From the NCBI GenBank assembly GCA_040297625.1, contig JBDUES010000208.1:1-48758 (forward strand): a stretch of 48,758 bases of DNA, read 5' to 3'. Positions within the stretch are counted from its first letter, which is position 1. Each line of letters begins with the position of its first letter. Below, in pieces: positions 45,056-48,445 of this stretch. The notes under the pieces were generated by a model. It did not search any database. It saw nothing but the letters and a program-made list of their open reading frames with translations, and was not told the DNA's origin. Position numbers and translations under genes: made by a program. The DNA comes from Candidatus Nitrosocosmicus sp. (GTDB lineage Archaea; Thermoproteota; Nitrososphaeria; Nitrososphaerales; Nitrososphaeraceae).

Positions 45056-46183
45056 TTATTTATTTTGTAAATTTTTATGCAACCGCACCATATGAAATAA
45101 AGTATTTTTATAAATTTCAATACCTGTTAAATACTCTTGAATATAAATTCGTTCATCCACTGTATGAGAGGAATGTGGATCCCCTGGACCATATGTAACC
45201 ACTGGAATGTTAAGAACGTTACCCAAGATATTCATATCCCCTGTTCCTGTTTTTTTTAACAACAATGGCCTTTTTTTTCTATTGTCCAAAATGGATAATA
45301 CCAATGATCTCACTAAAGGAGAAGAAGCATTTGCCTGAAAAGGTTCGGTTTTATCCTCTACATGATACTTTATTATAATATCATTTTTATCTTTTTTAAT
45401 TTCGTTTATATTAATATCAATTAAATTCAAAATTTCATCACAAGATAGATGAGCAGGTATTCTAATATCAATTGTCATTCTACATTTTTGAGGAGTAACA
45501 TTATGACTTGACCCTCCATCTACTTCAGTTACACTGTAACTCACAAGGTTTGCTTTATTTTTAGATTTATTCATATCATGGTTATCTAAAACTTTTTTTA
45601 GATTAGCCCATATGCTATAAATCTCTTCAATAGCATTCAAAGAAATCCAAGGTGCACTTGCATGTGCACTATTATTTACATCACATAATAAACGAATCTC
45701 TAAACGGCCTTTATAAGAAATAGTAATGTTATCAATCCCACTCGGCTCACCAAAAATTGCATAATGAGGGTTTAAATTTTTATCCTTTACAAGATTTTTT
45801 ATACCTGTTGCATTACCTTCTTCATCTACCACTCCGGCAAAAATTATCGTTCCATTTTGTTTTGGAAAATCTGCGGCCCCTAATAACATAGCTATCAAAG
45901 GTGCCTTTGCATCGGAAGCTCCTCTACCAAACATATAATTACCATCTATTCGAACCGGAACAATACCAGGAACTGTATCCATATGACCACAAAGTAATAT
46001 TACCGGATTTCCCGTACCCTTTACTGCAATAATGTTTCCTACGCTATCAATATTTGCTTGCTCAAATCCAAGATCCAAACAAACATCTTTTAAAAAATTA
46101 GCAAGTTTTGTTTCCGATCTTGAAGGTGAATAAATTTCCAATGAATTTTTTAATAACTCGATAGCAAAAGCAGAAGAGACCAT
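45056..46183 (-). CDS. lysK: [LysW]-lysine/ornithine hydrolase (M20 family)
   Basis: IYSPS..E, LLCGHMDTVPG, GRGASDAK, VDEE, GEPS, GTGDMN, YGPGD..SHT; start probably ATG 46183. Confidence 0.9.
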   Translation of the reverse strand: MVSSAFAIELLKNSLEIYSPSRSETKLANFLKDVCLDLGFEQANIDSVGNIIAVKGTGNPVILLCGHMDTVPGIVPVRIDGNYMFGRGASDAKAPLIAMLLGAADFPKQNGTIIFAGVVDEEGNATGIKNLVKDKNLNPHYAIFGEPSGIDNITISYKGRLEIRLLCDVNNSAHASAPWISLNAIEEIYSIWANLKKVLDNHDMNKSKNKANLVSYSVTEVDGGSSHNVTPQKCRMTIDIRIPAHLSCDEILNLIDININEIKKDKNDIIIKYHVEDKTEPFQANASSPLVRSLVLSILDNRKKRPLLLKKTGTGDMNILGNVLNIPVVTYGPGDPHSSHTVDERIYIQEYLTGIEIYKNTLFHMVRLHKNLQNK

Positions 46184-46190
46184 ATTTTTT

Positions 46191-47072
46191 TTAATTTTTT
46201 GAAATATTAACCATATAATCAACAATTAATGAGGGTATATCAATTCCAGTCACTCTTACTGTATTTTTAAATTCGGTAGTATTATTTACCTCATGAACCA
46301 ATAAACCATGATTCTTACTTTCCATTAAATCTACACCAACTATATCACCTTTAAAAATTTTTGCCGCATTAAGACAAATATCTTCCAATTCCTTAGTAAT
46401 AGGACATGTTTCTGCAAAGCCTCCTAGGGCCATATTTGTCTTCCATTCTTTGTTCCCGGAATATCTATATATAGCAGCTACTACCTCGTCGCCTACTACA
46501 ATTGCCCTTATATCCCTAGGAGGCCTCTTGACAAACTCCTCAAAATAATTAATATGGTATATTGGGAACATGTGTTCTCGATCTTCTAAAACAGTTTTTG
46601 CGGCTTCTTCATCATTCAATAGGCCAATCAATCGCCCCCAGCTTCCTACAGTGGGTTTAATCACAACAGGATAACCCCACCGATTAATACCTTCAATAGC
46701 AGAAGAAGTAGAAAAAGAGCAAAAAGCATTGGGTGTAACAACTCCTTGTTTTTGGAGCTCCATATGAGAAAATAATTTGTTACCACACATAATAGAAGTA
46801 TAAAGAGAATTTATCATTCGCGCTCCAAGTCCTTCCAAAGCAGCAGTAGAATGCATACTTTTAAAATAACTTACACATCGCTGTAAAATAACTTTATTTT
46901 TAAACTCTGTATTTTCATCATTCAAAAATAAAATCAGTTCTTTACAATTGAGTGTTTTTAAATCAATATCATTTTTTTTTGCAGTTTCAATTATAGATTT
47001 TTCTTCCCATCTTATACTATCAAAAAGAATAACAAGGGAAGAATTTTCTTCCCTGGAATTTATTGTCCCCAA
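46191..47072 (-). CDS. lysX: Alpha-aminoadipate--LysW ligase (RimK-family ATP-grasp)
   Basis: IRWEEK, LQRCVS, KPTVGSWGRL, PPRDIR, WKTNMALGG, HEVNNTTEFK. The TTG start overlaps the 3' end of lysW. Confidence 0.93.
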   Translation of the reverse strand: MGTINSREENSSLVILFDSIRWEEKSIIETAKKNDIDLKTLNCKELILFLNDENTEFKNKVILQRCVSYFKSMHSTAALEGLGARMINSLYTSIMCGNKLFSHMELQKQGVVTPNAFCSFSTSSAIEGINRWGYPVVIKPTVGSWGRLIGLLNDEEAAKTVLEDREHMFPIYHINYFEEFVKRPPRDIRAIVVGDEVVAAIYRYSGNKEWKTNMALGGFAETCPITKELEDICLNAAKIFKGDIVGVDLMESKNHGLLVHEVNNTTEFKNTVRVTGIDIPSLIVDYMVNISKN

Positions 47073-47233
47073 TCTTCTCCAACTACTTGTGCAGGCTTTA
47101 TACTAAAATCATCACCCGTTTTTACTAATTCAAAACTCTCTCCACAATCAGGACAGGTAACGATTTCTCCTTGCATCGAGTCATTGGGTATTGGGATTTC
47201 TGCATCACATTCAATACAATTAACTTTTGACAT
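47060..47233 (-). CDS. lysW: Amino-group carrier protein LysW, 57 aa, ending in EDWGQ; missed by the ORF track
   Basis: MSKVNCIECDAEIPIPNDSMQGEIVTCPDCGESFELVKTGDDFSIKPAQVVGEDWGQ*; two CxxC pairs; located between homocitrate synthase and lysX. Confidence 0.95.
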   Translation of the reverse strand: MSKVNCIECDAEIPIPNDSMQGEIVTCPDCGESFELVKTGDDFSIKPAQVVGEDWGQ

Positions 47234-47236
47234 TTT

Positions 47237-48445
47237 TTAATCCTTATTTGTTTTCATATTACCCTCATTAAGTATTTTTCTCTCCAATTTTTCATCTAAA
47301 TATAATTCTAGAATATCACCCATACGTAATTCTTTTAATCCCTTTGCTAAAGATTCAGCATTTTCTTTTGATGCTCCTAATCCGAGTATAGATAAAAGAT
47401 ACGCAGAGCCGTTTTTACCAGATAATTCACCAAAGACAATTTTACGCCTGTTGCCTACTTGTTTTGGTTCAATTATTTCATAAGCAGAAGGATTCCGCAA
47501 AATAGCTGCAAGGTGGGTTCCCGCTTTGTGTTTATAGGAACTATCACCTACTAACGGTTTAGATTCATGGACAGGTATTTTAGTATAATCAGAAATAGTT
47601 TTTGACAAGTCCTTTAACATATGTAATCGAAAATCATTATTGGATTTATAAATAAGATTTAACGCAACGGCAGTTTCTGCCAATGTAGGAATGCCAGTTC
47701 GTTCACCAAGCCCGTCTATAGTAGTATGAATTTGATCTGCTCCGCCCTCACAACCGGATAATGCATTGGATAATGCTAAACCAACGTCATTATGACAATG
47801 AACATCTAAAGAAGTTTTTGAGTTATCTATATTATCATGAACTAATTTTACAATATTATACATACCACGAGGTCTCATAATTCCCACTGTATCAGGAATA
47901 CTAATTCTTTCAATTCCACGATTATTTATTTCCTTACATAAATCCAATAGAAATTCAGGGTCTGTCCTACTCGCATCTTCCATGGTAAATCGAGATTTCA
48001 ATCCATGAGATTTAATGTAATCAGCCACATCTAAAGCTCTAATTTTAGCTTCTTCTCTAGAAATTCGTAGTTTGGAAGACAAATGAATATCTGAGATACC
48101 AAGATAGGTAGCAACCCAAATTGCATCACAATCTATTGCTATATCAACATCCGATTTTATTGCACGTACATGTGCTACAATATCAGCCTTTAGTCCTTGT
48201 CTAAGAATTATTTTTGTAGCATCACGATGATCTAGAGAAACTATTGGACTTATTTCTATTTGGTCTACCCCAAATGAATCAAGCATCCATGCAATTTGAA
48301 TTCGTTGCTTGTTAGAAAAAGAAACACCTGGATGCTGCTCTCCTTCTCGCAATGTAGAATCCAAAATTTTAATATTTTTTTTATCCTTTTCAGAATCGTT
48401 ATACAAATGTGCAAAATAATTGGGATCGTCTGATTTTAGTGACAT
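47237..48445 (-). CDS. Homocitrate synthase (LeuA/DRE-TIM family)
   Basis: DSTLREGEQHPG, DTVG, HCHND.GLA..N, GLGERTG, HKAGTH; no LeuA regulatory domain; heads the lysW-lysX-lysK cluster. Confidence 0.88.
   Translation of the reverse strand: MSLKSDDPNYFAHLYNDSEKDKKNIKILDSTLREGEQHPGVSFSNKQRIQIAWMLDSFGVDQIEISPIVSLDHRDATKIILRQGLKADIVAHVRAIKSDVDIAIDCDAIWVATYLGISDIHLSSKLRISREEAKIRALDVADYIKSHGLKSRFTMEDASRTDPEFLLDLCKEINNRGIERISIPDTVGIMRPRGMYNIVKLVHDNIDNSKTSLDVHCHNDVGLALSNALSGCEGGADQIHTTIDGLGERTGIPTLAETAVALNLIYKSNNDFRLHMLKDLSKTISDYTKIPVHESKPLVGDSSYKHKAGTHLAAILRNPSAYEIIEPKQVGNRRKIVFGELSGKNGSAYLLSILGLGASKENAESLAKGLKELRMGDILELYLDEKLERKILNEGNMKTNKD

What the first reader, a model, noticed from the sequence alone, without database searches (positions are those of the whole stretch)
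47060..47233. LysW carrier protein ends in EDWGQ, not EDWGE
Seen: the last codons are GAA GAT TGG GGA CAA TAA, giving a C-terminal Gln, in an otherwise intact homocitrate synthase-lysW-lysX-lysK cluster. Established: in Thermus and Sulfolobus, LysX/ArgX ligate the substrate amino group to the gamma-carboxyl of the C-terminal Glu of EDWGE; Gln has no such carboxyl. Inference: this carrier needs different chemistry, such as prior deamidation, ligation to the terminal alpha-carboxyl (RimK-like) or transamidation. Alternatively it is a regulatory or decoy paralog used alongside an EDWGE copy elsewhere. I recall Q-ending LysW paralogs in other thaumarchaea but cannot verify that here.
Basis: partly seen in the sequence, partly recalled or inferred. 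Interest (0 to 1): 0.8.

Follow-up and report, generated by a model that had tools for sequence, protein, structure and literature searches.

The report
Glutamine-capped LysW amino-acid carrier
The only carrier protein found in this ammonia-oxidising archaeon's genome for building lysine and arginine is encoded with a terminal glutamine where the known chemistry needs a glutamate, and because glutamine and glutamate swap repeatedly at this site across archaea, it is likely a pro-form that would be switched on by an undescribed one-time removal of ammonia.

Summary
Confirmed and not an error. The 57-aa LysW ends EDWGQ, contigs from three other runs carry the same codon, and it is the only carrier gene in this 97.8%-complete Nitrosocosmicus-like genome, which has both LysX and ArgX. 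Among 200 sampled genomes of the order, EDWGQ occurs in 134 of 143 from the four amoA-bearing families and 0 of 57 others. In 42 of 63 family members no EDWGE gene was found, including six single-contig genomes, so the decoy reading fails. Q also arose in other Thermoproteota and flips within genera. The last residue was always E or Q. E/Q exchange runs at about the rate of neighbouring synonymous sites, and no LysX or LysK residue covaries with it. Best reading (inferred, 0.52): a Pup-like pro-carrier deamidated once to Glu, likely by LysK, then the normal gamma-linked cycle. Rivals: ligase transamidation, another amidase, alpha-carboxyl ligation. No biochemistry was possible. A full-text search for EDWGQ found no paper, but the key structural papers were not held. 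This scan has reported the trait before in at least nine other windows.

The parts
47060..47233 (-). lysW-family amino-group carrier, 57 aa: zinc ribbon C6xxC9...C27xxC30, 12 Asp/Glu against 3 Lys, tail EDWGQ
   Evidence: sole carrier in the genome
47063..47065 (-). terminal Gln57 codon CAA, at the position of the substrate-bearing Glu
   Evidence: same base in contigs of 3 of 4 runs
46191..47072 (-). lysX ATP-grasp ligase. The only ATG/GTG/TTG start ahead of the conserved N-terminus is the TTG at 47072, overlapping the last 13 nt of lysW. Specificity signature I-I-M-NT; GSWGR and RDIR motifs intact
   Evidence: (TIGR02144 316.9 > 275.6)
45056..46225 (-). lysK/argE M20 hydrolase, the candidate deamidase (inferred). 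H81, D105, E135, E136, E160 and H354 retained; probable start ATG at 46183
   Evidence: TIGR01902 286.6 > 163.1; best solved match 5xoy LysK
47237..48445 (-). homocitrate-synthase-like gene, first step of the aminoadipate route (name from context)
   Evidence: (TIGR02146 347.5, below cut-off 413.55)

Best explanation
This LysW is encoded with a terminal Gln and is the only carrier found for the genome's LysX and ArgX; it is likely a pro-carrier whose Gln57 side-chain amide would be hydrolysed once to Glu, most likely by the pathway's own M20 hydrolase LysK, after which it would run the standard gamma-linked cycle. Shown: the Gln, the single copy, the intact ligases, kinase, reductase, transaminase and LysK, and no dapB, dapF or argJ match. 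Established elsewhere: LysX/ArgX attach aminoadipate or glutamate to the gamma-carboxyl of the terminal Glu, and LysK cleaves that gamma-amide to release lysine or ornithine and return LysW-Glu. Inferred: LysW-Gln is the same gamma-amide with ammonia as the leaving group, so LysK could cleave it, as Dop both deamidates and deconjugates Pup. The carrier is recycled in the Glu form, so each molecule needs the step only once. A slow side activity would then suffice, and E and Q would be nearly interchangeable in evolution, as observed.
For: (1) Q carriers must work. 42 of 63 family relatives plus this genome have no EDWGE gene, including single-contig G011, G014, G084, G089, G133, G145. dapB, dapF and argJ were found in 0 of 5 Q-only genomes each. 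(2) Only E or Q occurs at the last position: 105 E, 19 Q, 0 other among 124 of 150 cluster representatives that end D[WF]G-x (26 lack the tail), and 163 Q, 140 E, 0 other among 303 distinct carrier genes in fetched loci (sampling partly chosen by E/Q patterns). (3) Exchange looks near-neutral: 7 C/G changes at the Q/E base on a 115-row ammonia-oxidiser LysX tree, against 9 C/G changes over five neighbouring fourfold sites (96 changes in all), while E53 never changes. (4) Sole carriers differ within one genus: g96 has 2 Q and 4 E genomes with cognate ligases 73-84% identical; g111 has 1 Q and 2 E, 74-75%. (5) No LysX or LysK column separates Q from E in more than 4 of 7 lineage contrasts, and GSWGR, R65, R189, R203, N213, D248, E261, N263 and E267 are invariant in 57 of 57 ligases. 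(6) Q loci outside the order share no extra gene. (7) Precedent: Pup ends in Q or E by species, and Dop performs both reactions (PMC3511204, passages). (8) ArgW E54A is an arginine auxotroph in Natrinema, so a free alpha-carboxyl alone did not suffice there (PMC10433800, passages).
Against: No experiment shows deamidation or names the enzyme. Ammonia lacks the alpha-carboxylate that M20 enzymes normally bind (own knowledge; R255 is invariant), so LysW-Gln may be a poor LysK substrate. No LysK residue is shared uniquely by Q-tolerant lineages. A universal side activity does not explain why Q is missing from 0 of 57 non-amoA genomes of the order and from whole families elsewhere (f24 0/12, f25 0/23, f36 0/18). 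Q in 63 of 64 genomes of family f13 could reflect selection for Q rather than drift. The rate comparison is parsimony on a FastTree gene tree with uneven sampling, and saturation undercounts the synonymous sites.
Confidence: 0.52

Rival explanations
1. LysX and ArgX use the amide directly: with ADP and phosphate they would convert Gln57 to the gamma-acyl phosphate, release ammonia and transfer the acyl group to aminoadipate or glutamate. The product is the same gamma-linked conjugate.
For: Predicts the same E/Q-only pattern and unchanged active sites. Needs no extra gene. Gamma-glutamyl transfer with ADP and phosphate is known for glutamine synthetase (own knowledge).
Against: Phosphorolysis of a primary amide is uphill and slow (own knowledge). 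In Q-only genomes both ligases would need it, and neither differs in its catalytic residues from E-only relatives.
Confidence: 0.15
2. An unlinked amidase or, in thermophiles, spontaneous hydrolysis converts Gln57 to Glu; LysK is not involved.
For: Would explain why Q tolerance is patchy across lineages that all have LysK.
Against: No shared neighbour gene. The one Dop-like candidate found, a GCS2-like protein, is confined to the family (16 of 20) and was not found with this query in f4, f9, f13 or 5 Q-only outside genomes. Uncatalysed Gln deamidation is very slow at soil temperatures (own knowledge).
Confidence: 0.14
3. The ligases attach substrate to the terminal alpha-carboxyl, RimK-style, leaving Gln57 intact; LysK would then act as an ordinary carboxypeptidase.
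For: LysX/ArgX belong to the RimK superfamily, and the arginine that binds the acceptor's last residue is shared with RimK (PMC10375531, passages). Long retention of Q in f13 could mean Q is preferred.
Against: The side chain would be free to drift, yet only E and Q occur. The switch flips within genera with no covarying ligase change. E and Q carriers coexist with one shared set of downstream enzymes. E54A is inactive in Natrinema.
Confidence: 0.12
4. A small fraction of carrier is made with Glu because Glu-tRNA(Gln) escapes GatDE amidation and reads the Gln codon, and this fraction carries the flux.
For: Archaea make Gln-tRNA indirectly and the carrier is catalytic (own knowledge); predicts the E/Q-only pattern.
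Against: About 99% of the protein would be an inactive competitor, which fits poorly with near-neutral exchange. All archaea share this route, yet Q is patchy.
Confidence: 0.04
5. Assembly error, dead gene, or decoy beside an EDWGE copy.
For: This genome is a 245-contig assembly at 97.8% completeness, so a gene could be missing. A lysA-like decarboxylase below cut-off exists.
Against: Same base in other runs. 25 of 25 genus members have one Q carrier. Six single-contig genomes have only Q carriers. argG ends 3 nt from argX in relatives, leaving no room for argW. dapB and dapF were not found.
Confidence: 0.02

Closest known systems
LysW/ArgW amino-group carriers of Thermus thermophilus (3wwl), Sulfurisphaera tokodaii/Sulfolobus (3vpb), Thermococcus kodakarensis (5k2m) and Natrinema gari ArgW
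   Same: Zinc-ribbon domain, acidic surface, EDWG tail in register, LysX/ArgX plus kinase, reductase, transaminase and LysK; one carrier for two ligases as in Sulfolobus.
   Different: The encoded last residue is Gln, so no gamma-carboxyl exists as translated. All three solved chains end in Glu.
Pup(Q)/Dop/PafA of Actinobacteria
   Same: A small protein tag conjugated through the gamma-carboxyl of its last residue; encoded as Q or E by species, some organisms having both; the deconjugating enzyme is also the deamidase (PMC3511204, passages).
   Different: Analogy only: a folded zinc ribbon rather than a disordered tag, an ATP-grasp ligase, an M20 hydrolase, and a metabolite rather than a protein lysine as partner. 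Deamidation is untested here.
RimK, MptN and CofF alpha-L-glutamate ligases
   Same: ATP-grasp superfamily (TIGR00768 above cut-off).
   Different: The window's ligase passes the LysX model and is far below the RimK, MptN and CofF cut-offs (78/331, 157/350, 68/300).

Membership tests
LysW/ArgW amino-group carrier | Zinc-ribbon globular domain, profile above cut-off | tested here: met
   NF041070 83.7 > 75; PF21344 49.9 > 27. TIGR01206 is 31.4, below its 53.2 cut-off.
LysW/ArgW amino-group carrier | Encoded C-terminal EDWGE with a free gamma-carboxyl | tested here: not met
   Ends EDWGQ; filed as a variant that likely works like LysW, not as a canonical member.
LysW/ArgW amino-group carrier | Co-occurs with LysX/ArgX, kinase, reductase, transaminase and LysK | tested here: met
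   lysX and lysK adjacent; argX, argC, kinase and argD on contig C160.
LysW/ArgW amino-group carrier | Substrate attached by an isopeptide bond to the last residue's gamma-carbonyl | not testable with these tools
   Needs mass spectrometry or NMR.
LysX (aminoadipate-LysW ligase) | TIGR02144 above cut-off; GSWGR carrier-binding motif; RDIR arginine | tested here: met
   316.9 > 275.6; motifs invariant in 57 of 57 ligases; roles from PMC10433800 and PMC10375531 passages.
LysK (M20 LysW-lysine hydrolase) | M20 metal ligands and catalytic glutamate; best solved match LysK | tested here: met
   H81, D105, E135, E136, E160, H354 invariant in 54 of 54; 5xoy at E 6.5e-50. NF003367 is 282.7, below its 363 cut-off. 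Ligand roles are recalled.
LysK (M20 LysW-lysine hydrolase) | Deamidase activity on LysW-Gln | not testable with these tools
   Inferred by analogy only.
Pup/Dop system | A Dop-like GS/GCS-fold deamidase in every Q-carrier genome | tested here: not met
   A GCS2-like protein occurs in 16 of 20 family members but was not found with this query in f4 0/6, f9 0/10, f13 0/20 or 0/5 outside Q-only genomes.
RimK alpha-glutamate ligase | RimK equivalog score above cut-off | tested here: not met
   NF007764 78 bits against 331.

The most novel reading that the evidence does not exclude
No hydrolysis step exists: LysX and ArgX in these archaea load aminoadipate and glutamate straight onto a glutamine-ended carrier, by ADP/phosphate-driven transamidation or through the alpha-carboxyl. 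That would be a second, undescribed chemistry of amino-group carrier proteins, used by one of the most abundant microbial groups on Earth.
Probability: 0.25. Interest if true: 0.82.

Novelty: new variant of a known kind. Interest (0 to 1): 0.64.

Why it matters
In the Q-only ammonia-oxidising archaea tested, the LysW route is the only lysine and arginine route found, and a published metabolic model fills this route in by analogy to Sulfolobus without the terminal residue coming up in the passages read (PMC6038301). In 42 of 63 sampled relatives of this family no encoded carrier can do the textbook first step, so a reaction is missing from the pathway. If LysK is the deamidase, it is a convergent twin of Dop, and carrier maturation could be a control point. 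If the ligase does it, the carrier chemistry itself is new. Three purified proteins and a mass spectrometer can decide it. It also warns that EDWGE-based searches for carrier proteins will miss Q-ended ones (19 of 124 intact cluster representatives).

Tried and rejected
Hidden second carrier: tblastn, a six-frame [ED]DWG scan and PF21344 at E<=1 found none. Constraint from the lysX overlap: in most ammonia oxidisers the Q/E base lies upstream of the overlapping GTG start, GAG TGA keeps that start equally well, and arg-linked copies with other overlaps also carry Q. The top covarying LysX column (R/T at position 3) is an artefact of that overlap. LysX loop WKTNxALG as a Q-enabling motif: Leu216 is invariant in 57 of 57 ligases from Q-tolerant lineages, but it is also common in E-only families f36, f44, f45, f51 and f61, and this genome's own ArgX has Arg there; rejected. 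ArgX S59/C59 tracks lineage, and LysX partnered with Q keeps Cys. Dedicated deamidase beside the operon: none shared. GCS2-like protein as a Dop equivalent: range too narrow. 'Q is tied to ammonia oxidation': true within the order, false across the phylum. Two pattern hits were chance: G011's second (ends TGG) and G255's (not a carrier frame). Q-ended carriers in bacteria: 10 look-ups returned no organism names, so this is not established here. RNA evidence and raw reads: none obtained. No structure or complex prediction was run, since LysK and LysX bind the carrier under every rival. Four look-ups for three structural papers (Yoshida 2016 twice, LysZ-LysW, LysY-LysW) found none held.

Full report
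Observation. The minus-strand gene at 47060-47233 encodes a 57-aa protein ending GAA GAT TGG GGA CAA TAA, EDWGQ*. It passes NF041070 LysW/ArgW (83.7 against 75) and PF21344. Gln57 aligns with the terminal Glu of all three solved LysW sequences found. It lies between a homocitrate-synthase-like gene and lysX-lysK. In 3 of 4 public runs laid, a listed contig spans base 47065 with no differing letter; one of these three is flagged as a possible source of the window. The closest named records are Ca. Nitrosocosmicus and Nitrososphaeraceae, and the genome has amoA.

No EDWGE copy stands behind it. The genome (97.8% complete, 245 contigs) has one carrier by tblastn, six-frame motif scan and profile search. 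It has a second ligase, ArgX, in argG-argX-argC-argB-argD-lrp on contig C160, with argG running into argX. In relatives this block joins the window's block as one operon. All 25 of 25 genus members searched have one carrier, each ending EDWGQ. dapB, dapF and argJ were each found in 0 of 5 Q-only genomes, four of them single contigs; a lysA-like decarboxylase is present in 5 of 5 but below cut-off.

Range within the order. In 200 genomes at least 90% complete, a pattern for EDWGQ-stop matched f1 63/63, f4 2/6, f9 6/10, f13 63/64, and 0 of 57 in the ten other families. The same four families carry amoA (140 of 143; 0 of 57 elsewhere). This is one clade, so it counts as one association. The EDWGE-stop pattern matched only 21 of 63 in f1, leaving 42 genomes without an E carrier, among them single-contig G011, G014, G084 (one Q gene) and G089, G133, G145 (two Q genes). 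Reading the operons gave every combination: E/Q, Q/Q, Q/E, E/E and Q alone. In six loci a decayed argW remnant lies between argG and argX while the Q-ending lysW is intact. On the ArgX tree argW loss falls in three separate clades.

Range beyond the order. An earlier scan note (e1-6505470) suggested looking wider. In 400 genomes of the phylum the Q pattern matched f27 10/13, f33 9/24 and three single genomes. Of 20 loci fetched, 19 held a true EDWGQ carrier and one was chance; two matches were not fetched. Twenty of these genomes have no E match. Sole carriers differ within genus g96 (2 Q, 4 E; cognate ligases 73-84% identical) and g111 (1 Q, 2 E; 74-75%). Among the best 150 of 1101 cluster representatives, 124 end D[WF]G-x: 105 E, 19 Q, none other; 26 lack the tail. 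Whether any are bacterial was not established.

What the pattern says about mechanism. On a FastTree LysX tree the lysine-linked carrier changes between E and Q 7 times among 115 ammonia-oxidiser rows. Five neighbouring fourfold sites show 96 changes, 9 of them C/G. These sites are C or G about 45% of the time, so roughly 4 would be expected at a free C/G site (my estimate), against 7 seen, while E53 never changes. E and Q thus look close to interchangeable, and no other residue was seen. Seven Q-versus-E lineage contrasts showed no LysX or LysK column separating more than 4 of 7. The top LysX column was an overlap artefact, and the others are variable positions. The GSWGR motif reported to recognise EDWGE (PMC10433800, passages) and the arginine reported to bind the carrier's last residue (R173 in 5K2M, R189 here; PMC10375531, passages; alignment) are invariant in 57 of 57 ligases. 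A loop motif that looked promising (Leu216) failed against E-only families. Q loci share no extra gene.

Best explanation. These results fit a carrier whose Gln is converted to Glu or to the same gamma-acyl product, with unchanged enzymes. They fit poorly with a move to the alpha-carboxyl, which should free the side chain and leave marks in the ligases; E54A is also an arginine auxotroph in Natrinema. LysK already cleaves the gamma-amide of LysW-Lys and LysW-Orn, LysW-Gln is that amide with ammonia as leaving group, and the carrier is returned as Glu, so one slow event per molecule would do. Pup gives the precedent: Q or E by species, sometimes both, and one enzyme for deamidation and deconjugation (PMC3511204, passages). 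I put LysK priming at 0.52, ligase transamidation at 0.15, another amidase or spontaneous loss at 0.14, alpha-ligation at 0.12, mistranslation at 0.04 and decoy or error at 0.02. Every mechanistic step is inferred.

Against this reading. No LysK feature marks Q-tolerant lineages. Many LysK-bearing families show no Q (0 of 57 in the order; f24 0/12, f25 0/23, f36 0/18), which a universal side activity does not predict. Q in 63 of 64 f13 genomes could be selection rather than inheritance. The deep-branching families f4 and f9 are mixed, so the ancestral state in ammonia oxidisers is unresolved. The tree counts rest on parsimony, one gene and uneven sampling.

Literature. A full-text search for EDWGQ returned 0 papers; LysW with Nitrososphaera viennensis and proteom returned 0; LysW with E54Q-type terms returned none on LysW. 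Searches listed nothing on a Gln-ended carrier by title or abstract start; one search was for Pup. Read as passages: PMC6038301, PMC3511204, PMC10433800, PMC10375531, and PMC12998189 (plus section 6). Yoshida 2016, Yoshida 2015 and Shimizu 2016 were not held. Horie 2009 and the LysK structure paper (both recalled) and Ouchi 2013 (seen as a reference) were not looked up. No supplements were read, and alignments in figures are not searchable, so a prior remark on EDWGQ or a tested E-to-Q mutant cannot be excluded. The scan itself has reported the trait in at least nine other windows; those notes are not independent evidence.

Verdict. A real, inherited variant of a known carrier that exposes a missing step in archaeal lysine and arginine synthesis and is cheap to test. 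New variant of a known kind; interest 0.64.

Noticed in passing
L167 (G171:C150); genomes G171, G186, G212: Genus g24 has one LysX-type ligase (3 of 3 genomes) and one Q carrier; argX is missing from the operon in L167. Most ammonia-oxidiser LysX have Ile at the Thermus F182 position (107 of 109), a change that added glutamate loading in Thermus (PMC12998189 section 6), so this LysX may serve both pathways.
   Followed up: partly
L064, L083, L099, L103, L107, L168, between argG and argX: Decayed argW remnants in gaps of about 170-210 nt, most still showing a W-G-like tail.
   Followed up: partly
L371:2036-3277 (G000:C158): A 413-aa protein with no Pfam hit whose atlas neighbours are GCS2 carboxylate-amine ligases, next to an M20 peptidase; found in 16 of 20 family members and, apart from one weak hit, not elsewhere in the order. 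Function unknown.
   Followed up: partly
L370:1235-2593 (G000:C235): lysA-like PLP decarboxylase below the lysA cut-off, with no dapB or dapF found in the genome; its substrate is unclear.
   Followed up: partly
window:47060-47072: lysX appears to start at a TTG inside the D-W codons of lysW, a 13-nt overlap; the same TTG context is seen in all 25 genus members, whereas most other ammonia oxidisers have a GTG inside CAG/GAG TGA.
   Followed up: partly
window; G000:C160: The arg block ends 220 nt from the end of contig C160 and the lys block starts about 310 nt from the end of the window; relatives have them contiguous, so the two contigs probably join.
   Followed up: no
window:41249-43780: A PPP-type phosphatase-like gene (weak hits only) beside a 510-aa P-loop protein with a weak KaiC match, downstream of dph5.
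   Followed up: no
L240-L248: A 404-aa gene with a CobW/HypB-type nucleotide-binding hit is inserted on the opposite strand between argD and lysK in family f27 operons.
   Followed up: no
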